A stretch of DNA of 63,989 bases, counting the filler, from Ionaspis alba (taxonomy: Eukaryota): the NCBI GenBank assembly GCA_964255285.1. It is 7 parts of 7 records of this genome, joined end to end, with 100 filler letters (N's around TTAATTAATTAA, not from the genome) between each part and the next. Parts side by side here need not be neighbours in the genome. Positions count along the whole stretch, not along the records: positions 1 to 9,263 come from CAXUUL010000680.1; 6 more parts are not named here. One strand, written 5' to 3'. Both the position numbers and the translations under genes were made by a program. Below are positions 1 to 60,180 of the stretch, piece by piece. Below the pieces are notes generated by a model that saw nothing but the letters and a program-made list of their open reading frames with translations, did no database searches and was not told the DNA's origin. Each line of letters begins with the position of its first letter. The stretch's first letter is position 1.

Positions 1-7
1 GAGGATC

Positions 8-907
8 TCAGACTCCAAAATACCTACTGGTACTTTCCACAAGCCAGACACCAGGACCCCTCCTCTCCTCACCATCAGCCTTCTCTGGTTCCATCTCGAA
101 CATGCCGACCTCCGGCTCGTGGGTGATCATGCGCCATTGCGAATTGGTCTGTAAGTTGTCGAGAACTTTTTTGTAGGTCGTTTCCGTGGAGCCGCTAGAG
201 TCGACCTAAGTTAGAACTAAATTAGCTACCTCATCGCATAACCAACTTGACTTCCACACAGGAAGGGCGCAGTATGACAAACCTTGACGAGACCATCCGG
301 AAGCTCTTCATAAGCTTCCACAATAAGCGGGTTGAGGTCCTCGAACTGCTCATAACGCTTCTCGAAGGTGCCTTCATTCTGGCGAGGCCTGTCAGGTAGG
401 TCGCGAGCCAGGAAACGCTGTTTGGCTATCTCTTTCGGGCACTCGAGATATAGCATCAGCTCGCGAGCATCGCTGTACTGTTCGGCTTTCAGTAGGTGAG
501 ACAGCCTCGAAGAACTCTGCTACAAGGCACCTACCTGCTTCTCGAACTGCGAGCACTGGGCCAGATCACGCGGGAAGCCGTCAAGCAGGAAGCGCTGACA
601 TCCGGTCTCCTTGTACTCGTGCTCTATCTTCGAGAAGATGAGTTGCCCGAGCAGACTCCATGGCAAAAGTTCATTCATGTTCAGGGAGTTTTCGATGGCG
701 TCGTGGTTGGCGAGAGTTCTGGCACGGGTTCCAGCCCGTAGGAAGTCGCCGATGGAGAGATGGCAGAGGTTGAATTCTTCGGCGAGTTTCTTGCATATCG
801 TGCCTTTGCCAGAACCTGGAGCTCCTGTGTCTACGTTCAGCTCGTGTAAAGTAAGGATATCTTGAGATGGACTCACCAACGACGAAGACAAAGGAGTAGC
901 GAGCCAT
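8..907 (-). CDS. Nucleoside monophosphate kinase, UMP/CMP kinase (adenylate kinase family), divergent paralog; 4 exons
   Basis: Spliced by eye: exons 907-877 (MARYSFVFVVG), 824-535, 477-283, 205-8 (TGA), all introns GT..AG. P-loop GAPGSGKGT, HLSIGDFLR, FLLDGFPR..Q and a short LID (RFLARDLPDRPRQNEGTFEKR), typical of short-LID NMP kinases. Confidence 0.88.
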
Positions 908-1275
908 GTTGGGGGCGAGTCTCGTATGCGGGAGAGAGGAAGTGGTGTGTTGGCACTTGATGTGGTTTCAACACGTCGGAGAGTTGTGATTGTTCGTGTT
1001 TGTGTGGAATTAGCAAGGTCTTCTGTGGCTGCATTGACCGCGTCTTTCCGGAAACTTCTTCACGAGGTTAACACGTTCCGGAACCATTTAACTGATTCTT
1101 CATCCTCTGGAGCACTCTTACCGGACGATGCTGGATCGATAGACGACTTTCAAGGAGTATCCGTACCCTCTTCCTTCGCAGCAGACCAGTACTTATAAGA
1201 AGCGGGCCCTTTTGGCAAACATTGCCACCGCCTTCGTTCTAAAAGTCCTCATCATCAAACACAATACCGCCCATC
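908..1275. promoter_or_regulatory. Bidirectional promoter shared by the kinase and viperin, with twin TTCCGGAA palindromes
   Basis: 368 bp between divergent ATGs. Perfect palindromes TTTCCGGAAA (1045-1054) and GTTCCGGAAC (1075-1084). TATA-like TTATAAG near 1193. Confidence 0.55.
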
Positions 1276-2277
1276 ATGCTGAACCAGCTCTTCACCTACC
1301 CTGTATGGGCAGCCGCAGCCATCACACTGCTTGTTGTCCTGATCATTCCATCAATCTGCTACTGGGGCGGTCACCGAGCAAAGAGCAACTCACCTGTTTC
1401 GGTCAACTACCACTTCACGCGACAGTGCAACAAGAGCTGCGGGTTCTGCTTCCATACAGCCACGACGTCCTTCCGGCTACCAGAAGATCAAGCGAAACGC
1501 GGGCTAGCCCTCCTCAAGAGGGCAGGCATGAAGAAAATCAACTTTGCTGGAGGCGAACCTTTCATGTATCGACAATTCTTGGGTCATATGATAGCATACT
1601 GCAAGAATGAGCTACGTTTGGAGTCCGTTTCCATTGTCACAAACGGTAGCTTGGTGGAGGAAGCATTTCTCACAGAGTATGGCAAATACATCGACATCCT
1701 TGCAGTGTCTTGCGACTCATTCGACGAGGAAACAAACATCAAAATTGGAAGGGGAAGTGGAAAGAATGTTGAGAAGCTCTTTCAGATTTCTGAATGGTGT
1801 AGGAAATTTGGCATCAAATTCAAGCTCAACACTGTTGTTTGCCGACTGAACTACCAAGAAGACATGAACGAGATTGTCGCTAAACTCCAACCATTCCGCT
1901 GGAAGTGCTTCCAGGTCCTACTTGTTGCTGGCGAGAATGACTCCGACAAGACTCTCCGCGATGTACGTAAATTCCAGATCTCAGATGAGGAGTACGAGTT
2001 GTTCTGCCGCAAGCATCAGCATCAGGAATGTTTTGTGCCAGAGCCAAATAATCTCATGGCGAAATCGTACTTGATTCTGGATGAGTACATGCGATTCCTT
2101 GACAGGGATGGCCGCAAGCCTTCAGGATCGATTCTGGACGTTGGTGTCGACACAGCTCTGGGCCAGGTGTTCTGGGATAAGGATAGTTTCATGGAGAGGG
2201 GCGGTGTTTATGACTGGAGCCGTCTTGGGAGCGATCAAGGGTGCGGGACAGACGAGCACAGCGAGTTGAGCTGGTAG
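1276..2277 (+). CDS. RSAD2: Viperin / RSAD2 radical SAM enzyme (ddhNTP synthase), intronless
   Basis: SVNYHFTRQCNKSCGFCFH (viperin-type CxxxCxxC), KINFAGGEPF, SIVTNGS, DILAVSCDSF, KLNTVV, RWKCFQ, MAKSYLILDEYMRFL, RGGVYDW. N-terminal hydrophobic helix and terminal Trp (ELSW*). Confidence 0.96.
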   Translation: MLNQLFTYPVWAAAAITLLVVLIIPSICYWGGHRAKSNSPVSVNYHFTRQCNKSCGFCFHTATTSFRLPEDQAKRGLALLKRAGMKKINFAGGEPFMYRQFLGHMIAYCKNELRLESVSIVTNGSLVEEAFLTEYGKYIDILAVSCDSFDEETNIKIGRGSGKNVEKLFQISEWCRKFGIKFKLNTVVCRLNYQEDMNEIVAKLQPFRWKCFQVLLVAGENDSDKTLRDVRKFQISDEEYELFCRKHQHQECFVPEPNNLMAKSYLILDEYMRFLDRDGRKPSGSILDVGVDTALGQVFWDKDSFMERGGVYDWSRLGSDQGCGTDEHSELSW

Positions 2278-2451
2278 ATCTGCCCCTGCTCGAACTGCTT
2301 GGTGACTGCCTCAAATCAATGGCCAGTCAGTACCAACGAAGGCCGTTGGCAATTTTTCTGCCATGGGTTGATCTGCTTGGACAGTTTCCATAGGTAGCTT
2401 GAGCAGAATTGATGCGTAAGAGAACCTTGGTCCTTTAGGTAGTCAAAGTCG

Positions 2452-3431
2452 TCAATCAGTCCTCCTCCATTTTGTTTCCTCCGTGCCATTTCCTCTTTCA
2501 TACCCGTTTCCAACTTCCGCTCCGTCATCTACATCTTGATTCCCAGCTTCATCCCTTACTCTCACAATTCCAGCTCCAGGGCCAAGACCTCCCGCCCTCC
2601 AATTTCCCTCCTCATCATAGAAATCGTTGATATTATCTACTGTAATCCAGCCACTGCTTCCTGGCATAGGCGGCGGAAGACCGTCAGTACCTCCGTCGGA
2701 GTCCAAGGTCTCGTACTCAAAGGCAGGCTCGTCTTCCACGTCAATATCCGCAGAAGAGGAGGGAGATGCAGGATCAGGATGCAGATTTGCGCAAGCTGAA
2801 ACGGCTGAGAATAAGGCTTGAATGGGGCTTTCACTACTTGACGGCGGACTAGACTCCGTTGGAGGACTGCTGATGTGTTCAGCGGATAATGGAGAGGCGG
2901 AAGGGACTAATGTCAATGAGATCGTGTCGTCAGGGTTGTGGTCATCGAAGCCGTCCCCAATGGAGAGCTGCATAAATAGTCCTTGAACTTCGTTGCTTGA
3001 GGATGGTAGCTGGAGTCTTTGAACCGCATGCAGCGATATGCTAGGATATGGTATCGAAACTCCTATTGCAAGCGATTGACGGTAGAGAATGAATTTACTA
3101 TCCGTGTTAGCAAGGTCCCCCTTCTGGCCGTCAACAAATTGAGGACATACTCGGAGGTCACCCAGATATCGACACCAGGAACGACGATTTCCTCCCCCTG
3201 GTGTTCTCCTGCATCACCATTCGTGGCAGCTGCAGACGGGATCTTGTCATCCGCAAGCTTTGATAGTGCAGGAGAGGAGGCCAATTCTGAGTCCAGTATA
3301 ACGAGATCTGCCGATGAGGACTCGTGGTAGAGAACTACCGGACCAGAATAAAACGATGATGGTGTTTGAGATTGATGCTCGGATACCGGCACGTAGGAAG
3401 AGGCCCGTGGTTCCTCGTGTATGATCTCCAT
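2452..3431 (-). CDS. LOT5: Lot5/ICln (Voldacs domain) protein
   Basis: Two exons. After the intron near 3150-3100 the frame reads GVSIPYPSISLHA, then LFSAVSACANLHPDP and an acidic C-terminus. Confidence 0.8.
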
Positions 3432-3517
3432 GACTGGAAGAAACGGTCGAGTACTGTACGGTTGGGTGCCTGTTCCCGAAGTCTACAAAATGCTTGGCAA
3501 TATATATAGCACTTCCA

Positions 3518-3617
3518 NNNNNNNNNNNNNNNNNNNNNNNNNNNNNNNNNNNNNNNNNNNNNNNNNNNNNNNNNNNNNNNNNNNNNNNNNNNNNNNNNNN
3601 NNNNNNNNNNNNNNNNN
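3518..3617. other. Plain 100-N scaffold gap (also 38881-38980 and 59884-59983)
   Basis: Runs of N with no linker. Confidence 0.95.
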
Positions 3618-3660
3618 GTCTAAGAACTCTTTTCCTAGTGTCTAACTCCGCAATGACAGC

Positions 3661-4251
3661 TTATTGTCGAATGCTCATGCCGCCGAATGCTCGGTCGAGC
3701 TCTTCACCTTCAGCTGCTCGTTGGTCAATTAGACTCCTTCCGGTCGGTCCACCGTCTTGGCTATCCATGATACTATTTTCTACGATTCCTGTGTAACTCG
3801 TAGCTATCGTGCTCTCGCGCTTCCTCTCTGGTTCCAGGATCTTCTCTTCGCGATCAAGCCACCCAGGGGCGACACGTCTCTTCTCTGCGAGCTCCCGTTC
3901 TTTGATATCAGTCTGCCATTGCCTTAGAGTGTTCTCGGCATCTTCCTGCATTTTCTGCAGATGAGCCTGTAGTGCTTGGCAGGAAGCAATAATCTCGTCG
4001 GGATGAGCGGCATGACCCGACGCAGAAACCACATATTTTGGTTTTTCCATGCCGTTAGCTTCTCCGGTGGATGATGGAGGTAGAGTTGATGGTAAAGATT
4101 TATATGTATATGGAAGTGTAGTGGCAGTTGGTAAGGATATGAATGGAGAGACCGTCAACGGGATCTGAGCTAAAAGCGGATGTGGCCCTGTGGCTGTGTC
4201 AGTCGAAGTAGTTCCTGCAGCTGGTGATGGAAGCTCACTTTCTTCATGCAT
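3661..4251 (-). CDS. Conserved-looking fungal hypothetical protein
   Basis: 196-aa single ORF with a coiled-coil segment and EKRRVAPGWLD motif. Divergent from calcineurin A. Confidence 0.65.
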   Translation of the reverse strand: MHEESELPSPAAGTTSTDTATGPHPLLAQIPLTVSPFISLPTATTLPYTYKSLPSTLPPSSTGEANGMEKPKYVVSASGHAAHPDEIIASCQALQAHLQKMQEDAENTLRQWQTDIKERELAEKRRVAPGWLDREEKILEPERKRESTIATSYTGIVENSIMDSQDGGPTGRSLIDQRAAEGEELDRAFGGMSIRQ

Positions 4252-4955
4252 TGTCTGAGAGGCGAATTTTGAAAAGATATTTCTTTGAGCATATGAGCCT
4301 TTCTGTTAAGACACCGGGAGTCTTAAAGTGAACCTACCATGATTAGACGCAGGCAAGAAGTTAAAATATCGAAGCACGTGCCTGATGAAGCTATCAGCGC
4401 CTAGAACTGCCCCGCGATCTGGAACCGAAGTCAATCTCAGAGCCGCAACTTGGTTTCTGCATCTCGTACCATCAGGGGGACTGATAGCAACACCTAGATC
4501 TGAACCAAACGTCTACCATTTCTGTTGTATCTCGTCTGCCTCGGTTGACCGACCCTCCCAGTCACTGAATCTAGAAGCGCACATTCAAGGTGATTCCAGC
4601 CTCAGCCTTAGTGTGGCGCTAGGAATCCTCCAACTTCACCCCCGAGCCAGCTCTCTGCAGGCAGCCCCACGCAAACAAATCACACCACGTGAAGTCTGAA
4701 TTCCTCTCCATCGGTCAAAGCCAGAGCGTTGCCTGAATTCTCCAGCCAGCTCACTCAGATCAGAAGGATTGCTGGCGCAATTGAACCTGCCATATAACTG
4801 ATCGACGCGTTAACGGCTACTTTATCAACAATTCGCCACATGCACAGACACACGAGTCATTGATTGTTGTCCTCTCTGTACTGAAACTTGAATCTTAGCA
4901 AACGGCGAATTGGGAACGTCGGCGAACGTCAAGAGACCAAACCTACCTAGCAAAC

Positions 4956-6829
4956 ATGGGTGGAGGCACAGGCGCGGAGCCGCTCGAGGTAACGATGCGG
5001 GCAGTTCACGAGAAGAAGCCCATACCAGAAATCGATTTCACCTTGCATACCATGGAAGACGGAACGCAAGTCAGCACGCAGGAGCGTGTTTGCAAAGGTA
5101 CGCAGTCATGACAGCTCTCCGTACTGGTATCTGGTGCTAACAGTCAGTCCCTTCCTTCAGAGGTACAAGCACCCGCATTCAACCCTCCAACCGAAGACCA
5201 GTTCTTCTCTCCGCAAGACCGATCCAAGCCCAATTTGGCATACCTCAAGCAGCATTTCTATAGGGAAGGACGATTGACGGAAGAACAAGCACTCTGGATC
5301 ATTCAAACTGGTACAGAGGTTCTCAAAAGCGAACCGAATCTTCTCGAGATGGATGCGCCAATCACAGTCTGTGGTGATGTGCATGGACAATACTTTGATT
5401 TGATGAAACTCTTCGAGGTTGGAGGTGATCCTGCAGAGACTCGGTATCTGTTCCTCGGCGATTATGTTGACCGAGGATACTTCAGCATAGAGGTACATCT
5501 CGCACATTGAGGACTTGAAATGATACCACTAACGAGTGTTGCAGTGCGTATTGTATCTATGGTCGTTGAAAATATGGTATCCGAATTCCTTGTGGCTCCT
5601 ACGTGGCAATCACGAATGCAGGCATCTCACGGATTACTTCACATTCAAACTCGAATGTAAGCATAAGTATTCCGAGAAGATATACGAAGCATGTATGGAA
5701 TCGTTCTGCGCATTACCATTGGCTGCCATCATGAACAAACAATTCTTGTGTATACATGGTGGACTGAGTCCGGAGCTACATACCTTGGAAGACCTCAAAA
5801 CTGTACGTTATCGCCCCTATGAGTGCTTTGAGAACAATGCTGATGATCGTAGATTGACAGGTTCCGCGAACCTCCAACCCATGGTCTCATGTGCGACATC
5901 CTGTGGGCAGACCCTCTCGAAGAATTTGGCCAGGAGAAGACATCTGAATTTTTCGTTCATAATCATGTTCGGGGATGCTCTTACTTCTTCTCGTATCCCG
6001 CTGCCTGCGCCTTCCTAGAAAAGAACAATCTACTCTCCGTCATTCGAGCCCATGAAGCGCAAGACGCTGGTTATCGTATGTACCGGAAAACGAGAACGAC
6101 CGGATTCCCAAGTGTTATGACTATCTTCAGCGCACCCAATTACCTCGACGTTTACAACAACAAAGCTGCAGTCCTCAAGTACGAGAACAACGTGATGAAT
6201 ATCCGACAGTTCAATTGCACACCTCATCCCTATTGGCTTCCTAATTTCATGGATGTCTTTACCTGGTCGTTGCCATTTGTGGGGGAGAAGATTACAGACA
6301 TGTTGATTGCGATCCTCAACACTTGCTCGAAGGAAGAGCTGGAGGATGATACTCCAATGTCTTCGGGACCATCATCGCCTCCGATAGCCAACATGGATCC
6401 AGAATCCACTGAATTCAAGCGACGAGCGATCAAGAACAAGATTCTTGCAATCGGACGTCTGTCGCGAGTGTTCCAAGTACTGCGAGAAGAGTCCGAAAGG
6501 GTAACCGAGTTGAAGACAGCGTCTGGAGGGCGTCTCCCTGCTGGTACTCTCATGCTAGGTGCTGAAGGCATCAAACAAGCCATCCACAATTTCGAAGATG
6601 CTCGGAAGGTCGATTTACAGAACGAGAGACTACCGCCTACTCACGACGAGGTGACCAAGAAGAGCGAGGAAGACAGAAAGCAGGCGTTCGAACGAGCTAG
6701 CTTCGAGGCTGAAAATGACAAAGGCCTAGCGCAGGTCGCTAGGAGGATCAGCATGTAAGTCCACAACCTCGTCCTATTGGCTTTTGATAGGCTAAGCTAA
6801 TTCGTGTCTTCAGGAGCAGGAAGAAGTAG
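4956..6829 (+). CDS. cnaA: Calcineurin A (PP2B catalytic subunit)
   Basis: [14 protein letters not shown]-terminus; GDVHGQ, GDYVDRG and RGNHE PPP motifs; SAPNYLD; CnB-binding [15 protein letters not shown]; CaM-binding [15 protein letters not shown]. Multiple introns; last exon ends in TAG at 6829. Confidence 0.97.
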
Positions 6830-7237
6830 GCGAGGCTGCTCTCTGAAGGGGGACTGTTTTCTTTAGATCATTGTTCGGATGAAGAGCGTTTTCTTCGTGG
6901 TTGATAATCTCGTGGAGAAATTATCCCCAGCTCTTGGTCCTGATGGTCGATGTGTATGCGCAGAGATCCATCCTGAATTATTTATAAGGGAAGAGATTAA
7001 TGAGTGTGCATCAACGGACATAGGTAGACATGGGGATGGATGAATTGGTCGTAGATATCTGACAACTCATGTCTATTTCCATGCTCAATACAGTTATTAT
7101 TGTTGTCGTGCTCATTGCATAGCCGTAGTAATAATTCTTGTCACCTGTTGCTTTAGCGGCTGCTCTGGCAGATCTAGGCAGGTTTAACCGAACCCGATGC
7201 TCAAGGTCGAAGCTCCGCCAAACCTCTATATCGCCAG

Positions 7238-9252
7238 ATGCCTCCTCTTTCACCACCGTCGAGAAGACTGCTATTGTACTTACGCGAGCGTCTCATTTCA
7301 AAGCCTTCCGTCTGCCGATCATGTCAGCACCAGCGACACCTTACGTCCGCCCGTTCGCGGCCAGGACGAGAGATTCTCTATCGTTTTGATCTTCGTCAAA
7401 AGCCATTGAAACGGCATCTGTCCTCCATAACGCCAGTCACTACCGTCAATGCCACCAAGACTATCCCTGCTGTGTTCCGAGAGCTTTATGACGGGCTTGA
7501 GGGATTGGAGAAGAATGCGGCAGCATATATCAACCTTAGCCAACTACAGCTTGCTTTGCGGGGATTGGAGTCTACAGATGCTACAATACGCGTCGCTGGT
7601 GGGCAATGCCTAGGTCCGAACAATGCATGAGATGCAAGCTGACTATATGAGCAGTCTTGGGCGTCAACGGCCAGGAAGGTGTCGGCCGGCTCGTGAGAGC
7701 CCTCCTAGCAGATCCACTTGGGCAAGAGCAGGCATGGGAGCAAGATTTGACCGCTGCAGTGAAAGATCCAAGAGCTTTACTTATACGGTCAGACAACGCC
7801 CACATGTCTATGATCCACACCTAACGATGTCTCAGGTACAATGAAGACTACGACTATGACCAGCAGCATCCCTTGCTGAGGACCGTTTCAATCCCATCCA
7901 CGGTACTACAGAACCACAAAATAGAAATACTCGTCTACAAGGGATTACCTATTTCTGAGAACTATGCGAACAATGGAGAGACCGGAGCGCAGGACGTCCT
8001 TGTACTAGCATTGGAGACCCCTACCTCTGCATCGGGGAGGGTATCAATGGTCACGTATCCGGTACACAAAACCATCCTCTACGGAGAAGGACTGCAAGGC
8101 ATAATAGCAATGTCAGCCACAATACAAGAGAAAGATACAGGACAGAGAGCAAGCCTAATTCGAGGCGTGATCAATGCACAATGGGAAAGCTCAGTAACCG
8201 CCAATGATACAGATGCTGCGATCAGCCTCATCAACCTTTCACTGGGCGAAGAGGCCATCACCTCGTTCCGGGCATCCCTCGAAAACTCCCTCGACTACGA
8301 ACACAAATGGCTCTCTAGTAATCTGTCATCCGTCCTTCATTTCCTCCAAGCAGGCACCTCCCCAACACCCACCTCACCCCTCAAGCCAGGTCTCCAAAAT
8401 CTCATATCAGCCATCCTCTCCAACGCCGAGACCTCCATCTCCAACGCCGAAATCCAATCCCGCTCTCTCGCCTCCGCATCTACCATACCCCAGACCACCC
8501 GCGCCGACCTCACCAACGCCCTCAAGATCTGGGCCGAGTCCTCCCACAACTCCCTTCGCACCTTCCTCGCTCTCGCCGTCAGCTCCAAGAATTGGCGCAA
8601 ACTCGCCTGGTGGAAACTCCTCTGGCGCGTCGACGACGTGACAATGATAACCACCGACATCCTACAGCGCTCCTGGCTCGTCAATGCCGAGAAGCACATT
8701 CTCTGGATCGGTGGCCGGATAAGGCAGGCCGGTTTGCTCGATACCGCAACTTCTATGGACCATACCGCACCAGAGGCGAGACCTGTACACAAATTAGGTG
8801 ACCGACCACCACGGCTTCGAATCAGTGAAATGCTTCCAGCTCAGAACGGTGAAGCCGATATTGAGGGCTTTCAGAGCACTCTGGCAGCGGAACTCGACCT
8901 CTCAACCCCAGATCCAAGCCACATCGCACAGGCGCGCACATCCCTCCAGCAAAGCATTCCCCCCCTACAGGCGCGCGCCCAAACCCTCCTTCTACAATCC
9001 GTCTCCACCACCGTCCTAACCTCGTCGCTCTCAGCGCTACTTTACGTCTCGGTCTCTACAACTTCTGTCTATGAAGCCGGTGCCATAGCTGCCGTGGGTT
9101 TTGTCTGGAGCTTGAGGCGGCTGCAGCGCGAGTGGGAGCGGATGAGGAAGGGGTGGATGGAGATGGTGGCGGAGGAAGGTGCGAGGGTTTTGAGGGGTGT
9201 GGAGTGGGGATGGAGGCGTTCGCCGTACTCAGCTTTCCCAAGAACGATATAG
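7238..9252 (+). CDS. MMC1-like mitochondrial protein
   Basis: Arg/Ser-rich presequence-like N-terminus, LSQLQLALRGLE, LAWWKLLWRVDDV and a C-terminal hydrophobic segment. The extreme 3' end abuts a gap and is uncertain. Confidence 0.65.
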
Positions 9253-9263
9253 CTGTTTTACAC

Positions 9264-9363
9264 NNNNNNNNNNNNNNNNNNNNNNNNNNNNNNNNNNNNN
9301 NNNNNNNTTAATTAATTAANNNNNNNNNNNNNNNNNNNNNNNNNNNNNNNNNNNNNNNNNNNN
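9264..9363. other. Assembly gap with artificial TTAATTAATTAA linker (also at about 18617-18716, 27934-28033, 37249-37348, 46550-46649, 55851-55950)
   Basis: Identical 12-mer, giving stops in all six frames, centred in 100-nt N runs. Confidence 0.95.
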
Positions 9364-18616: not shown

Positions 18617-18716
18617 NNNNNNNNNNNNNNNNNNNNNNNNNNNNNNNNNNNNNNNNNNNNTTAATTAATTAANNNNNNNNNNNNNNNNNNNNNNNNNNNN
18701 NNNNNNNNNNNNNNNN

Positions 18717-27933: not shown

Positions 27934-28033
27934 NNNNNNNNNNNNNNNNNNNNNNNNNNNNNNNNNNNNNNNNNNNNTTAATTAATTAANNNNNNNNNNN
28001 NNNNNNNNNNNNNNNNNNNNNNNNNNNNNNNNN

Positions 28034-37195: not shown

Positions 37196-37427
37196 GTGCA
37201 GAAGATTGCTCCAAAGAATATCGATCGGTGGCTTGAGCTATTGATCAANNNNNNNNNNNNNNNNNNNNNNNNNNNNNNNNNNNNNNNNNNNNTTAATTAA
37301 TTAANNNNNNNNNNNNNNNNNNNNNNNNNNNNNNNNNNNNNNNNNNNNTGTGCAAACGTATCCCAATTTCCATCACATCCAATCCATCCAAACAACACAC
37401 TGAATATACATCCAGCTATTACCCTTT

Positions 37428-38493: not shown

Positions 38494-40347
38494 CGTGACT
38501 CGATATTACACTTTCGGTCTTTACAATGTTCAGCTGAAAGATACTGAAGATGAAACTGTCGAATGTGTGTTACCAGTCAAGATGTGTGGATGGGCAAAAG
38601 AAAGAAGTAAGGAAGGCAAGCGATATTTCAAGCCCTCCCCTTCACTCGCAGGCAATAGCGCGAAAATGACTTCATCCGCGTTTTTCTCTCCCTATCTCTC
38701 GTCTCTCGCATGCTAGGCAAGGTAATAATTACTCACCCCAGATGCGGATCCAGGCAAGACCCATGTGATGAGAGAGCCTTCGTTAGTTGCCTTTCTAGCT
38801 GACCAGCCAGCCAGCCGTTGGAGTGGGAATCTCAGCGCGCCGGATAGCCAGACGCCGGAATACCCAATTCCTTCCTATTCNNNNNNNNNNNNNNNNNNNN
38901 NNNNNNNNNNNNNNNNNNNNNNNNNNNNNNNNNNNNNNNNNNNNNNNNNNNNNNNNNNNNNNNNNNNNNNNNNNNNNNNNCTGCCGATCGGACGTTGCGG
39001 AAGACGATCTGTGCCCTTCCATCTGTGGTTTGCCTCTGGTCGAAGCCTCAGCCATCTAAGCCAGTCATGGTATTGTCGATTTCCTCGATTTCTTGTGCCG
39101 AGCGGCTTGTGTTACAGCCACATGGAAAGCTGTCATGCTACCGTGGCTGCTCTTGACATTTCCTCGGCGACGACATTCGCCATTTTCGCGACGATATCAG
39201 TGACGAGAACTCCGAATCGCACAGATGGGAGTGATTAATCAGATGGTAGGATGGATGTAATTCCCGCGATATCCGGGGTGCATGGTGTTGCAGGAGATGC
39301 CAGCATCTCCACTCCTCGATTCGTCGAAGAAAAGTTGACTCACCATCACATGGTCGAGTTGCATCCATCCACAACAGAAAAGTTTGACAGCGAGGCTACG
39401 ATTACACCATCATTACAATCAGCCACTCATAGCAATCTCCATCCCGGTGGTGTGTAACACGAGACCTGGCCATGGCCTTCGACGTTGGAGGGAATGTCCC
39501 GGGCCAAGCTCCGTTTCGCCAATGATATACTGAGGCAATTCGCCAAACAATTATTAAGCTTATGCATTTCCAATCACAAAATCACGCTTCTCGCCCATCG
39601 CATTATCGCTGCCAATCCTGTGATCCGAGGAGGAGGAAGTAGGTAAGAAAAAGAAAATCCCGCAAAACCGTCGTCCTCTCCTCTTCTTCCTCCTTCCAGA
39701 CCTTTCGCTGGGCAGTAGGTAGCATAACCACATGACGTGCGATTCACAGCATCACATTCCTCACCTTCGACCTGCATCAACCATCTCGCGCCGCTTTACC
39801 TACCCGTCAAACCCAAACATGCATGCATACAGGGATGTGGAGAGCTTGCTAGGCTTGCCGCTTTCCATCCCAAGCCTTGCCGGAATGGTCCAGATCGTGG
39901 CGTCAGCTTAGCGTTCTATCAGACCTTGGAAGGGAGATTACCACCGTAGAAGAATCCTGCTTTTGAGCGTCATAGGGGCTCTTTATTTGAGACAGGAGAA
40001 CTTTTTCGAGAAATCAAGGTACATGCGAAATGAGAATGGATAGGACAGGGCCCAGAGTTGGCCTGGTGCCTGAAGTTCAACGGCGCCGCTTTGTGACCAA
40101 ATCCAACAGAGTGGAGGTACTGCCGCGCACGGACCCCATCGAGCCCTAACACGTGATCAAAACATAGAACACTTTCTCATACAAACCCTCAGAGGGTAAT
40201 AATAATAACATCTCCCATAATATCTATACTGAGAAGAACGTGATTGAAGTCTCCCGTAAATATTTTACTGTGCAAAGTCTATCAACAATGACAATCCCTT
40301 GTCTCCTATCCTTTACCTCCTACCTACTCCATCATCTCCAGACCCCA

Positions 40348-46549: not shown

Positions 46550-47699
46550 NNNNNNNNNNNNNNNNNNNNNNNNNNNNNNNNNNNNNNNNNNNNTTAATTA
46601 ATTAANNNNNNNNNNNNNNNNNNNNNNNNNNNNNNNNNNNNNNNNNNNNCATCAACGTTCGCAGTAAAAAGATCGGCGAGGCCTTTGGCGCGTAGCATTT
46701 TTCCTGAGGGTCTCGGAATTGGCTCTGCGGATGCAAAGCCGGACATAATAAGGAATATGAACCCGCCTTTTCAGGATGAAAAAATTGATCTTGGATCTGA
46801 ATCTCCGCAGTACCTCCCAGCTTTCCTTGCTCTCCCGTAGTGACAACAGTCAGCCCTAAATGCTGGAAGCCTGTTCAACGCATAGGATATTCAAGTTTTC
46901 GAGCCATACATATGTGCAGAGACAAACGTCGATGAACTTGCATCTGCACTAACTCGAGACAAAGTCTTAAAACGCTTCCTCGCAATTCAAGCATTCGTTT
47001 CTCCCTAATAGAAAATTTCGAGACCTCGGAGGTGGTCAATCGGTTGTTATTTTGGCAACGTGATATGTGATCTGCATAAATCTGCACAAGTCTTCTTGGC
47101 AAATGCCCTTTCTTAATCACTGTTCAAAGTGTCTGGATGCCTGAGTGAAATTCGATCTGTTCGTCGAAACTAAAATACGATAATACTGCCACTGGAGCGT
47201 GATGACTGTCGAAGAAGATATGGAATATTCCTGTGCGGTGTCAAAAGCTGTTCCACCCGTATAGGGGTGCAGAACCACTGGGACATTCAAAATTCGATGC
47301 GGCCAAAACAATCTTTGAGGTCGACCAACCTCCACAGCTAATCATTCACTCCGCAACCAAGAATTGTTGTTAATGCTGTGAGAGCCTTGCTCTGTATAGG
47401 GCCTCCCTGAAACTACGGGCTCTATGAAAGCAGCGGGGAAGCTTCCGGCAAACATGCGGTTCCACAGACCCCACCATCGTCAATGTTGTTGCACGTCATA
47501 GCCATCTAAGTGTTTAGAGTTATATCATTCGGTCCATGTTTCGCTCATTGAAACTATATGTTCCTCATCCGAAAGCTCACTTCTGTTCCATCTCTTCAAT
47601 CACAAATTTCCAACCTCGCAAATCCAGGTACAATGCTTCCATCCACTCCGAACGGCTTTTCATGACTGACGGAAACCAGTTAGGAGACCACTCGCAACC

Positions 47700-54787: not shown

Positions 54788-55951
54788 TCTCCAAATATTT
54801 CAATGACAAGCCCATGTTCATTCTCGGATGTATAACAAGTTTCTTCCTGTACATACAGTATTAGTGGGTTCACGTTGGCACCAATCTGGTGCCCGGATCG
54901 GTCCATCCAGCCTGACATGTGCAAAACGTCGGCCATGTGGTGACTCAAACTACATCTTCGGTGGGTCGTGATGATAAGTCGTGGAGATGTGATGGGTGGA
55001 GCTTTGTTGCTGCAATTGCCCGGAGCAGGCTTTTCAAGCGACTGCTATCAGCCGCTCGGCATCATTTCGGCGGCGCATCAAGTTGGAAGTTCTCTGTGGG
55101 TGACGCACAACTTCGCCTTTGGGCGGAGATACCTGTGCGACGTGCAATATGCAGGAGTGGGAGTGGAGTACATTGCAGATGTATCTCTCGCCTTGTGTTG
55201 CTGTCTTGTTTCGGTAAGGCAAAGCATTGGTAGAACAAGCAAGAAACTAGGCATTGTGGACCGTACCGTATCCACTATTACCCACAAAATAGATGGCACG
55301 ATAAATCATATCTTCCATAGATTTCCAATACCTGTAATCAACGTGCAACAGCCTGAGCGCATCTCAACCAATAAAGAAGTCCCTCATCGTCTTTGTTCTC
55401 CCTCCTTCTAACCCCCTGCAATTTGACCACCTACGCCACGACGATCGATTGTCACGACCACCAATGCAACTTCTCACTTCTCAGCCGCGGCGCCGCCACC
55501 CCGTATCCTTGTGCCTTGCACCTGCATCCAGTTCGCCCGAGAAGAAAAAAGTCTAAAAACTCGATTGGCCGCTGCACGTCAACGAACACCTTGTCCATTT
55601 TTCTGCCCTATGGCATCACCGCTCTAGGCTTATTTTATTGGTACCTTTGTTTCTTTCCGGTTCTTTTTCGAGAGAGCTGGCTTTGCTTTGGAGAGTTGAT
55701 GCCATGAGGACTATAGAGCTTTAGTTTTGGCCGGATCTCTTATTTTCTCATTCGTTACGATCTGCTTCTTTCCTGGGGAGCACAGGCGTTGCGAGATATG
55801 GCTCCTTTGTTCTTGGGGGGAGGCAATGCTAGTTCAGCGAAGTACTTTCANNNNNNNNNNNNNNNNNNNNNNNNNNNNNNNNNNNNNNNNNNNNTTAATT
55901 AATTAANNNNNNNNNNNNNNNNNNNNNNNNNNNNNNNNNNNNNNNNNNNNC

Positions 55952-59004: not shown

Positions 59005-60180
59005 CTTGGACAATGTGAGGACACGCGACCGTGCAACTCGAGGGTTGGCACAGAGACGATGAGCTCGAGTTGTTGATGATGTGCAGACTGCGAGATAGCG
59101 ATAAATCAGATTCGAAGTTCTTGAGAGAGTATAGACGGAGTTCGCTGTGAGTGTGGCGATGAGTCAGGAACGCCGGTGGCGTGAAAGCAAGTGGGCGCAA
59201 CCGTTTTGGAGGTTAGGGTCGTACCGTTATGCGGGAGATGAACAACCAAATGTCTCCCCTACAGCCGCTGCACGAAGCGACACCACCGAATCACTCCTCG
59301 AGTGACCTTGATACCACGAAAAGCCGATCGCGCGATAACCCTCAATCGTCTTGATTGTATGAAGATTGATTTTGTGCTGTAGAAGTGATGGTGAGTTGGA
59401 TTCGAAGGTAGTAGGTCGATGGCCGAAGAAGACAAGGCTGCAAAGTGGAAAAAAGTCGCTAATGTCAAATCGGAAAGAGAGTGATTAGGTAATCCTAAGA
59501 AGGAAAGGAAGAAGCACTTTTGTCGGTGAAAAGTGTCCTTCAATAATCTAAATTAGAGGATGATGAAAAAAGAAGATATCACGACTTCTTTTCAACTGAA
59601 ATTGTGGAGGAGAGTGATGGATGGATGTTGACGATGTGAGGGGTCGTCAAATCGCAGGTCAACGTGCGAAAACTTTTGCGATAAAGGCGAGGGGAGAAGG
59701 CTGCTCTTATAGAAATCCGGCTGCATGTTGGGCCGGATCCTGGCGCCTTCAGGTTTTGCTGCCGCTTTTAATCTTTACCGCTTCAGGGGTCGGTGTTCCT
59801 TCAACACTTTCCATGCCAAGCCTCCTTAAGGAGTTTGGTGCGACAGTTGCTTGCGCGGCTTTGCGGCATACACCCAATCATTGNNNNNNNNNNNNNNNNN
59901 NNNNNNNNNNNNNNNNNNNNNNNNNNNNNNNNNNNNNNNNNNNNNNNNNNNNNNNNNNNNNNNNNNNNNNNNNNNNNNNNNNNCTACATATGTGCCATAA
60001 AATGCAACTATTCTCTCTGTGGGGAGCGCAAGTATCGTACCTACATATTTGCGTGTCACAACCACAGCAAGTGTCAGTTACCATCCGACGACGGAGACCA
60101 TGGCGAGTTCGCTTGAGTGCCAGCCTTGCGAGTCGACAAATATCTCTGATCAGCAAGATTGGCTTGGGCCTGCGGGCAAC

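What the first reader, a model, noticed from the sequence alone, without database searches (positions are those of the whole stretch)
8..2277. Fungal viperin paired head-to-head with a dedicated NMP kinase: candidate two-gene antiviral nucleotide (ddhNTP) module
Seen: a complete viperin (1276-2277 +) and a 4-exon UMP/CMP-kinase-like gene (907-8 -) diverge from a 368-bp spacer on one ungapped contig. Established: viperins convert NTPs to 3'-deoxy-3',4'-didehydro-NTPs; vertebrate RSAD2 is head-to-head and co-induced with the kinase CMPK2; some prokaryotic viperins lie next to or are fused with nucleotide kinases. Here the partner has adenylate-kinase/URA6-family motifs (HLSIGD, DGFPR), whereas CMPK2 is thymidylate-kinase-like. 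Inference: fungi independently assembled the same viperin-plus-kinase architecture as a co-regulated anti-mycovirus unit. I am not aware of this linkage being described in fungi, but cannot check that here.
Basis: partly seen in the sequence, partly recalled or inferred. Interest (0 to 1): 0.9.

Follow-up and report, generated by a model that had tools for sequence, protein, structure and literature searches.

The report
Fungal viperin with its neighbouring nucleotide kinase
A fungal copy of the antiviral enzyme viperin sits back-to-back with a small nucleotide kinase gene; the pair is real and conserved in related fungi, but this fungal pairing has already been described in print.

Summary
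A single-exon viperin (1276-2277 +, 333 aa) and a four-exon adenylate-kinase-family gene (907-8 -) diverge from a 368-bp spacer, with no N between them.

The linkage is conserved. Among viperin loci from metagenomes with at least 1.2 kb of upstream DNA, 23 of 31 non-redundant clusters carry the same kind of kinase upstream. It lies on the opposite strand in every case.

The kinase belongs to a fast-evolving short-LID clade. It is about 30% identical to true UMP-CMP kinases, and its full-length relatives score far below the curated UMP-CMP-kinase threshold. Close pairs of these kinases show purifying selection. It therefore looks like a dedicated paralogue rather than housekeeping URA6. I could not test that directly, because no genome is held.

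The viperin has Arg277 at the nucleobase-pocket position where CTP-type viperins have Cys, as in the UTP-selective Trichoderma virens enzyme.

The novelty claim fails. Shomar et al. [quoted passage not shown] They describe the fungal ones as CMPK1-type, convergently recruited and tied to UTP specificity. Co-expression and an anti-mycovirus role remain untested.

The parts
8..205 (-). Kinase exon 4, with the stop codon at 10-8. It encodes the C-terminal segment through the conserved Trp, then a tail of ~35 aa that relatives do not support.
   Evidence: Gene model. Relatives share the segment up to the Trp but end soon after it. No family hit for this piece alone.
206..282 (-). Kinase intron 3, 77 nt, GT..AG, with a CTAAC branch-like site.
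   Evidence: Run X1 carries a 3-nt insertion behind 254, inside this intron.
283..477 (-). Kinase exon 3: the core and the short LID region.
   Evidence: TIGR01359 UMP-CMP kinase family, 24.2 bits, E 2.6e-5, profile positions 108-160. Alignment.
478..534 (-). Kinase intron 2, 57 nt. Its position is shared by most viperin-linked kinases.
   Evidence: frame. In one search, 19 of 24 loci split at profile position ~103-118; 3 are uninterrupted there and 2 showed the first block only.
535..824 (-). Kinase exon 2: P-loop GAPGSGKGT, the NMP-binding HLSIGDFLR, and DGFPR.
   Evidence: PF00406 ADK, 77 bits, E 2.3e-21. TIGR01351 74 bits and TIGR01359 64.8 bits. Yeast uridylate kinase 1UKY E 3e-13 and AK4 E 1e-13.
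825..876 (-). Kinase intron 1, 52 nt, just before the P-loop.
   Evidence: Many related loci begin their match at the P-loop (profile position 12-14), which is consistent with the same split.
877..907 (-). Kinase exon 1, with the ATG at 907-905.
   Evidence: The joined N-terminus matches the N-termini of relatives.
908..1275 (.). Divergent 368-bp spacer, a putative bidirectional promoter. A TATA-like TATAAG lies at 1194-1199.
   Evidence: Read. No 6- to 8-mer is clearly conserved across 24 spacers.
1046..1083 (.). Two palindromes with a TTCCGGAA core, at 1046-1053 and 1076-1083. The first extends to TTCnnGAAnnTTC (1046-1058), the form of a heat-shock element.
   Evidence: These are the only 2 TTCCGGAA matches in the 63,989-base window, where 1.16 are expected by chance overall. 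The three-unit element occurs in 1 of 24 spacers, the window's own.
1276..2277 (+). Viperin CDS, 333 aa. It has an N-terminal hydrophobic helix (about aa 9-29), CxxxCxxC at C51/C55/C58, GGEPF, pocket residue Arg277, and a C-terminal L-S-W.

Best explanation
This is one more instance of the fungal viperin plus CMPK1-like kinase gene pair, which has already been described.

The viperin is a membrane-anchored radical-SAM enzyme. It binds a [4Fe-4S] cluster through C51/C55/C58. It most likely converts UTP, and perhaps some CTP, to the 3'-deoxy-3',4'-didehydro nucleotide, which terminates chains made by RNA-dependent RNA polymerases.

The divergently transcribed neighbour is a short-LID kinase of the adenylate-kinase/UMP-CMP-kinase family. 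It most likely phosphorylates UMP/CMP to raise the local pyrimidine nucleotide supply when the pair is switched on from the shared 368-bp spacer.

Shown here: gene structures, family assignments, intact catalytic motifs, conserved divergent linkage, and purifying selection on kinases of this clade. Inferred: the substrates, co-regulation, and the antiviral (anti-mycovirus) role. That the kinase is an extra paralogue rather than the housekeeping URA6 is also an inference.
For: Viperin:
- NF038283 scores 251.7 bits against a cut-off of 180.
- T. virens viperin-like enzyme 7N7I matches at E 2.8e-136.
- The search found 2568 relatives, the best 76% identical.
- CxxxCxxC, GGEPF and the C-terminal Trp are invariant in 25 aligned fungal sequences.
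- Arg277 aligns with the Arg of FLDR in T. virens, and with the Cys of the FL(N/D)C loci of CTP type. The preprint gives an Arg as the UTP determinant of the T. virens enzyme, set against Cys314 of the mouse enzyme.

Kinase:
- PF00406 scores 77 bits.
- The P-loop, the Arg of LSIGDFLR, DGFPR and three LID-region Arg residues are present.

Linkage:
- Of 31 viperin clusters (grouped at 95% or more identity) with at least 1200 bp upstream, 23 have this kinase type upstream.
- All 23 are on the opposite strand. In 22 the kinase lies 260-1190 bp from the viperin match, and in 1 it lies 3025 bp away.
- 2 further clusters with shorter flanks are also positive.
- Most of these kinases share the intron position.

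Tree and selection:
- All 25 viperin-linked kinases fall on one side of a branch (SH-aLRT 80), apart from animal CMPK1 (96). The two groups together are separated from long-LID kinases at 100.
- Kinase dN/dS is 0.14-0.28 where dS is unsaturated. Kinase dN is about 1.6 to 3.3 times that of the adjacent viperin in 7 pairs.

Literature: Shomar et al. report the same association and interpretation.
Against: - No expression data: no RNA run is listed.
- No genome is held, so a separate URA6 was not shown. No fungal URA6 sequence was available for the tree.
- The clade fails the curated UMP-CMP kinase threshold. TIGR01359 gives 97-132 bits for four full-length relatives against a cut-off of 207.6. 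For one of them the AK1 model scores higher. UMP/CMP specificity is therefore not assured.
- In the window's kinase the two Asp that follow the LID Arg in true CMPK1 are Arg-Gln, and the LID is 2 residues shorter.
- 8 of 31 informative clusters lack any NMP kinase in the DNA fetched.
- The 23 positive clusters are related lineages, not independent events. Their fungal origin is assumed from similarity and introns.
- No sequence motif is shared by the spacers.
Confidence: 0.7

Rival explanations
1. The kinase is functionally tied to viperin but does something other than supply UMP/CMP-derived substrate. It could act on AMP/ADP, or it could phosphorylate ddh-nucleoside monophosphates for salvage or amplification of the product.
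For: Full-length relatives of the clade score 97-132 bits on TIGR01359 against a cut-off of 207.6. One relative scores best on the AK1 model. Exon 2 matches AK4 and uridylate kinase about equally well, E 1e-13 and 3e-13. The LID is shortened and the window copy has lost its Asp-Asp. The clade evolves about 1.6 to 3.3 times faster than viperin.
Against: TIGR01359 is still the top model for 3 of 4 relatives and for the window's exon 3. In the tree the clade groups with CMPK1 rather than with long-LID adenylate kinases, with support 100. The preprint classes these kinases as CMPK1.
Confidence: 0.15
2. The pair serves a non-immune role, such as making a ddh-nucleoside natural product or responding to stress, rather than defending against mycoviruses.
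For: No paper in the held library ties fungal viperin to mycovirus restriction: of 6 papers that hold both words, none has it as its topic by title or abstract. An opinion article recalls an early proposal that the fungal enzyme makes antiviral natural products (passage). The window's spacer holds a heat-shock-element-like TTCnnGAAnnTTC. The other genes on the contig are housekeeping genes, not defence genes.
Against: Fungal viperins expressed in E. coli make ddhUTP, as antiviral viperins of other organisms make ddh-nucleotides (preprint passages). The heat-shock-like element is found in only 1 of 24 spacers.
Confidence: 0.1
3. The kinase is simply the housekeeping URA6 orthologue, and its position beside viperin has no functional meaning.
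For: It is the only adenylate-kinase-family gene in the window, and no genome was available in which to look for another. The DGFPR...Q...FE stretch resembles yeast uridylate kinase 1UKY in the printed alignment.
Against: The window kinase is only 30-31% identical to true CMPK1, while two arthropod CMPK1 sequences are 59% identical to each other. True CMPK1 scores 266-270 bits on TIGR01359, against 97-132 for this clade. An exhaustive search found no single-domain relative above 51% identity. The kinase keeps its place and its divergent orientation beside a gene that the preprint describes as patchily distributed in fungi.
Confidence: 0.05

Closest known systems
Fungal viperin with an associated CMPK1-type kinase (Shomar et al., bioRxiv 10.1101/2023.09.13.557418; sections 5 and 6 read)
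   Same: A viperin next to a nucleoside-monophosphate kinase of the CMPK1/adenylate-kinase type rather than the CMPK2 type. The viperin has the Arg-type pocket of T. virens and an N-terminal membrane helix.
   Different: Nothing differs in kind. This copy's kinase is very diverged: 51% identity or less to any single-domain relative over exon 2. It has Arg-Gln where CMPK1 has Asp-Asp after the LID Arg, and it carries an unsupported C-terminal tail of ~35 aa. In the text I read, the preprint does not say whether the fungal kinases are extra paralogues, and it does not test them.
Vertebrate RSAD2 (viperin) with CMPK2
   Same: The two genes are neighbours, and the kinase is thought to feed pyrimidine nucleotide to viperin (preprint passage). 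The divergent orientation in vertebrates is recalled, not checked here.
   Different: The window's kinase hits PF00406 ADK and no thymidylate-kinase family. The vertebrate pocket has Cys/Lys and takes CTP; here the position is Arg. Interferon control has no counterpart in fungi.
Trichoderma virens viperin-like enzyme (PDB 7N7I, 6B4C)
   Same: E 2.8e-136 over residues 30-325. All radical-SAM and C-terminal motifs are present, and the FLDR stretch has the same Arg.
   Different: 62% identity to T. virens P0179 in alignment A1. The N-terminal helix and the last ~20 residues differ.
UMP-CMP kinase (yeast URA6, PDB 1UKY; animal CMPK1)
   Same: Short-LID fold family, P-loop, DGFPR, conserved Arg residues. 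The viperin-linked clade groups with CMPK1 in the tree.
   Different: 30-31% identity. The clade scores below the curated family threshold, has a LID 2 residues shorter, and has a C-terminal segment ending in a conserved Trp that CMPK1 lacks.
Prokaryotic viperins with adjacent or fused kinases
   Same: Viperin is genetically linked to a nucleotide kinase. The preprint gives 12% for bacterial and 5% for archaeal viperins.
   Different: Those are operons or fusions, and the kinases are mostly CMPK2-related. Here there are two eukaryotic genes with introns, transcribed divergently.

Membership tests
Viperin (antiviral radical-SAM ddhNTP synthase) | Radical-SAM CxxxCxxC motif for the [4Fe-4S] cluster | tested here: met
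   C51, C55 and C58 are invariant in 25 aligned fungal viperins. PF04055 at 5e-19.
Viperin (antiviral radical-SAM ddhNTP synthase) | Score above a curated family threshold | tested here: met
   NF038283 scores 251.7 bits against a cut-off of 180. TIGR04278, an exception-type model, scores 398.4 bits, below its cut-off of 450.
Viperin (antiviral radical-SAM ddhNTP synthase) | Conserved C-terminal extension ending in Trp (L/I/M-D/E/S-W/F tail) | tested here: met
   The protein ends in L-S-W, and W333 is invariant. The tripeptide rule is taken from the abstract of 10.1101/2023.05.19.541488 as shown in the search listing.
Viperin (antiviral radical-SAM ddhNTP synthase) | Makes a ddh-nucleoside triphosphate | not testable with these tools
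   Inferred from the match to the T. virens enzyme and from the preprint's LC-MS on two fungal homologues.
UTP-selective fungal viperin pocket | Arg at the position of mouse Cys314 in the beta-8 loop | tested here: met
   Arg277 lies in FLDR, as in T. virens P0179. Distant loci of CTP type have Cys at this column. I could not map the preprint's residue number (Arg257) onto P0179, so the equivalence rests on the alignment.
Adenylate-kinase superfamily (PF00406) | P-loop and domain score above the gathering threshold | tested here: met
   Exon 2 alone scores 77 bits against a cut-off of 26.8. The P-loop reads GAPGSGKGT.
UMP-CMP kinase family (TIGR01359; URA6/CMPK1) | Score above the curated cut-off of 207.6 bits | tested here: not met
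   The window's exons score 64.8 and 24.2 bits separately. Four full-length relatives of the clade score 97-132 bits, while two true CMPK1 sequences score 266-270. The spliced window protein itself was not scanned.
UMP-CMP kinase family (TIGR01359; URA6/CMPK1) | Short LID with Arg...Arg-x-Asp-Asp | tested here: inconclusive
   The LID is short and the Arg residues are kept. It is 2 residues shorter than in CMPK1, and Asp-Asp is replaced by Arg-Gln in the window copy. Relatives keep one or both Asp.
CMPK2 / thymidylate-kinase-like viperin partner | Thymidylate-kinase-type domain | tested here: not met
   No thymidylate-kinase family appears among the Pfam or NCBIfam hits of the window's kinase exons.
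Viperin-kinase two-gene module | Adjacency conserved in other viperin-bearing lineages | tested here: met
   23 of 31 informative clusters are positive, and all 23 are divergent. The preprint reports 70%.
Viperin-kinase two-gene module | Co-expression, and a kinase effect on ddhNTP output | not testable with these tools
   No RNA run is listed for this sequence.

The most novel reading that the evidence does not exclude
The kinases beside fungal viperins are not URA6. They form a separate, fast-evolving clade with a shortened LID, a shared intron position and a C-terminal segment ending in a conserved Trp. That clade has taken on a new job. Possible jobs are re-phosphorylating ddh-nucleoside monophosphates, working with altered substrate choice or regulation, or evolving in conflict with mycoviral factors.
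Probability: 0.25. Interest if true: 0.45.

Novelty: already known. Interest (0 to 1): 0.2.

Why it matters
The pair is a neat example of convergent evolution. Fungi and animals each keep a nucleotide kinase next to viperin, but from different kinase families. That point is already in print.

This check adds three things:
- An independent survey: 23 of 31 loci carry the kinase, always in divergent orientation.
- Evidence that the fungal partner kinases are diverged, fast-evolving and selected, and fall below the curated UMP-CMP kinase threshold.
- A clear list of what is still untested: the kinase's substrate, co-induction of the two genes, and any effect on mycoviruses.

Tried and rejected
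- Whole-genome search for a second UMP-CMP kinase: no genome is held for this window. The window itself has only this one adenylate-kinase-family gene.
- RNA evidence: no RNA holder is listed. The single run X1 is kept as DNA-type contigs. Laying it showed only overlapping pieces and allelic differences.
- Earlier findings of this scan: nothing by place or by sequence.
- Published version of the preprint by a recalled DOI: not held. The bioRxiv supplements, including the preprint's table of viperin-associated kinases, could not be seen.
- My third homologue search used P0008, which turned out to be an arthropod-type CMPK1. It gave animal references but no fungal URA6, so the tree lacks a fungal URA6.
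- The exhaustive search with exon 2 was dominated by proteins with many kinase domains. It gave no close single-domain relative.
- A shared promoter motif: no 6- to 8-mer is convincingly shared by 24 spacers. TTCNNGAA is in 9 of 24 spacers, against 4.1 in shuffles (7 of 500 shuffles reach 9). The opposite arrangement, GAANNTTC, is in 1 of 24 against 3.9. The three-unit element is in the window only. I therefore rejected a conserved heat-shock element.
- Mapping the preprint's Arg257 onto T. virens P0179 by number gave a Leu. I used alignment to CTP-type loci instead.
- I rejected the 49-nt intron 2 because it breaks the frame, and preferred 57 nt over 45 nt because the length then fits relatives better.
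Full report
**What is there**

The plus strand carries an uninterrupted 333-codon ORF at 1276-2277. It is a viperin:
- Radical_SAM PF04055 at 5e-19.
- NCBIfam NF038283 (viperin family antiviral radical SAM protein) at 251.7 bits, cut-off 180. TIGR04278 at 398 bits, below its cut-off of 450.
- The solved T. virens viperin-like enzyme 7N7I at E 2.8e-136.
- 2568 relatives in the large protein collection. The best is 76% identical. Named ones come from Xylographa, Trichophyton, Emydomyces, Aspergillus, Trichoderma and others.

In an alignment of 25 fungal viperins the cluster cysteines C51/C55/C58, GGEPF and the terminal Trp are invariant. The N-terminus is a hydrophobic helix, as in the others.

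On the minus strand, a start at 907 and three GT..AG introns (52, 57 and 77 nt) give a 237-aa protein. Its exons are 907-877, 824-535, 477-283 and 205-8. Exon 2 alone hits ADK PF00406 at 77 bits. Exon 3 hits the UMP-CMP kinase family model weakly. No thymidylate-kinase family is hit. The spacer is 368 bp, and there is no N in 1-3517.

**Context**

The window is not one molecule. Linkers of 44 N, TTAATTAATTAA and 44 N occur about every 9.3 kb. They mark a chain of separate contigs, so only 1-9263 is true context. This agrees with the 9263-base contig recorded for the window's own viperin fragment, P0096.

The other genes on that contig look like housekeeping genes: Voldacs, a metallophosphoesterase and Mmc1. 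The kinase stop codon lies 7 nt from the contig end. The last ~35 residues have no counterpart in relatives.

**Is the linkage conserved?**

A scan of metagenome contigs with the viperin alignment gave 79 loci, which form 61 clusters at 95% or more viperin identity. A local tblastn with the window's kinase gave these counts:

| Clusters | Number | Kinase found |
|---|---|---|
| At least 1200 bp of upstream DNA | 31 | 23 |
| Shorter flank, still positive | 2 | 2 |
| Shorter flank, no hit (uninformative) | 28 | 0 |

In all 23 positive clusters the kinase is upstream and on the opposite strand. In 22 it lies 260-1190 bp from the viperin match. In one it lies 3025 bp away.

The 8 negative clusters have no NMP kinase of any family in ORFs of 100 aa or more near the viperin. 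One of them, L053, is of CTP type (Cys pocket).

Two cautions apply. The positive clusters are related lineages, not independent events. Their fungal origin is inferred, not shown. The fraction agrees with the 70% reported by Shomar et al..

**What kind of kinase?**

The window's kinase is 28-46% identical to the linked kinases of loci whose viperins are 54-75% identical to the window's. The exhaustive search with exon 2 found no single-domain relative above 51%. Most linked kinases are split at the same profile position as the window's intron 2.

In a quick maximum-likelihood tree of 50 rows:
- The 25 viperin-linked kinases lie on one side of a branch with SH-aLRT 80. That side also holds 9 unlabelled proteins: 6 named fungal ones (Phaeosphaeriaceae, Pseudovirgaria, Colletotrichum, Diaporthe) and 3 without names.
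- 7 animal CMPK1 form their own clade, with support 96.
- The two groups together are separated from long-LID kinases with support 100.

No fungal URA6 was available, so the tree cannot show where URA6 branches.

Aligned, the window protein is 30-31% identical to CMPK1, while two arthropod CMPK1 sequences are 59% identical to each other. The P-loop, the NMP-site Arg, DGFPR and the LID-region Arg residues are kept. The LID is 2 residues shorter, and the Asp-Asp of CMPK1 is Arg-Gln here.

On the curated UMP-CMP kinase model, true CMPK1 scores 266-270 bits. Four full-length relatives of this clade score 97-132 bits against a cut-off of 207.6.

Close pairs of loci give kinase dN/dS of 0.14-0.28. 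Kinase dN is about 1.6 to 3.3 times that of the neighbouring viperin. The kinases of this clade are therefore functional, selected and fast-evolving.

All this argues that the gene is a dedicated paralogue and not the housekeeping URA6.

**Viperin pocket**

At the column where distant CTP-type loci read FL(N/D)C, the window and T. virens read FLDR. The preprint names an Arg of T. virens as the UTP determinant, set against Cys314 of the mouse enzyme. It also shows that two fungal viperins make mainly ddhUTP. I could not map its residue number onto P0179, so the equivalence rests on the alignment. The likely product here is ddhUTP.

**Promoter**

The only two TTCCGGAA sites in the whole window lie 30 bp apart in the spacer. 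The first extends to TTCnnGAAnnTTC, the form of a heat-shock element. This arrangement is not conserved in the other 23 spacers. It is a lead for this locus only.

**Expression**

No RNA run is listed. Contigs of the one DNA-type run overlap across the kinase, the spacer and the viperin start. They show allelic differences that keep both frames open.

**Comparison with the literature**

Shomar et al. (bioRxiv 2023; sections 5 and 6 and further passages read) state that:
- Most of these kinases are CMPK2-related.
- Those of fungi are CMPK1-type with a distinct origin, which suggests convergent evolution.
- This coincides with the UTP-specific pocket of fungal viperins.

I could not see the preprint's supplementary tables. 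A search for viperin together with mycovirus returned 6 papers, none on fungal viperin restricting a mycovirus by title or abstract. The native role therefore appears untested in the held library.

**Verdict**

The open question worth a bench test is what the diverged partner kinase actually phosphorylates.

Noticed in passing
window 9264-9363, 18617-18716, 27934-28033, 37249-37348, 46550-46649, 55851-55950: Linkers of 44 N, TTAATTAATTAA and 44 N occur about every 9.3 kb. The window is a chain of separate contigs of similar length, so genes beyond 9263 are not physical neighbours of the viperin locus. Plain 100-N gaps lie at 3518-3617, 38881-38980 and 59884-59983.
   Followed up: yes
window 1046-1058 and 1076-1083: Two 10-bp palindromes with a TTCCGGAA core lie 30 bp apart in the spacer, and they are the only two such sites in the window. 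The first reads TTCnnGAAnnTTC, the form of a heat-shock element. The arrangement is not conserved in the other loci.
   Followed up: partly
L045:5637-7021 (+); the same viperin cluster includes L046 and L047: In a viperin cluster without a neighbouring kinase, an S-adenosylmethionine synthetase lies just downstream of the viperin on the same strand. Viperin uses S-adenosylmethionine in its reaction, so this may be another kind of supply partner.
   Followed up: no
L027:1-450 (+); L053:2929-3828 (-); L066:903-2066 (-); L043:6972-8135 (+) and 5233-5820 (-): Other kinase-less viperin loci have nucleotide-related neighbours. L027 has a cytidine/dCMP deaminase upstream. L053 has a divergent CYTH (triphosphate tunnel) protein. 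L066 has an APH/choline-kinase-type phosphotransferase. L043 has a C5 DNA methylase and a 2OG-Fe(II) oxygenase. The preprint mentions viperin fusions to a triphosphatase or cyclase domain.
   Followed up: no
window 8-115 (-), the last ~35 codons of the kinase: The kinase has a C-terminal tail after the conserved Trp that relatives lack, and it ends 7 nt from the contig edge. It may be real, or a further intron and exon may lie beyond the contig.
   Followed up: partly
window 1-3517, run X1: The one public run that holds this stretch shows two variants at similar depth in 1243-1392, differences from the window elsewhere, and a 3-nt insertion in kinase intron 3. Of the listed differences, 7 are synonymous and 5 non-synonymous in the viperin, and 1 synonymous and 2 non-synonymous in the kinase. 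Two strains or two alleles may be present.
   Followed up: partly
proteins P0001, P0002, P0334-P0345: The strongest hits to kinase exon 2 are very long proteins (850-2650 aa) with 4-8 adenylate-kinase-like stretches. P0001 also carries precomputed NB-ARC, AAA and NDK family hits. I did not examine them.
   Followed up: no
proteins P0005 and P0164: In Phaeosphaeriaceae sp. PMI808, a kinase of the viperin-linked clade (P0005) is recorded on a 322-kb contig and a viperin (P0164) on an 872-kb contig. In that species this kinase may not sit beside that viperin.
   Followed up: no
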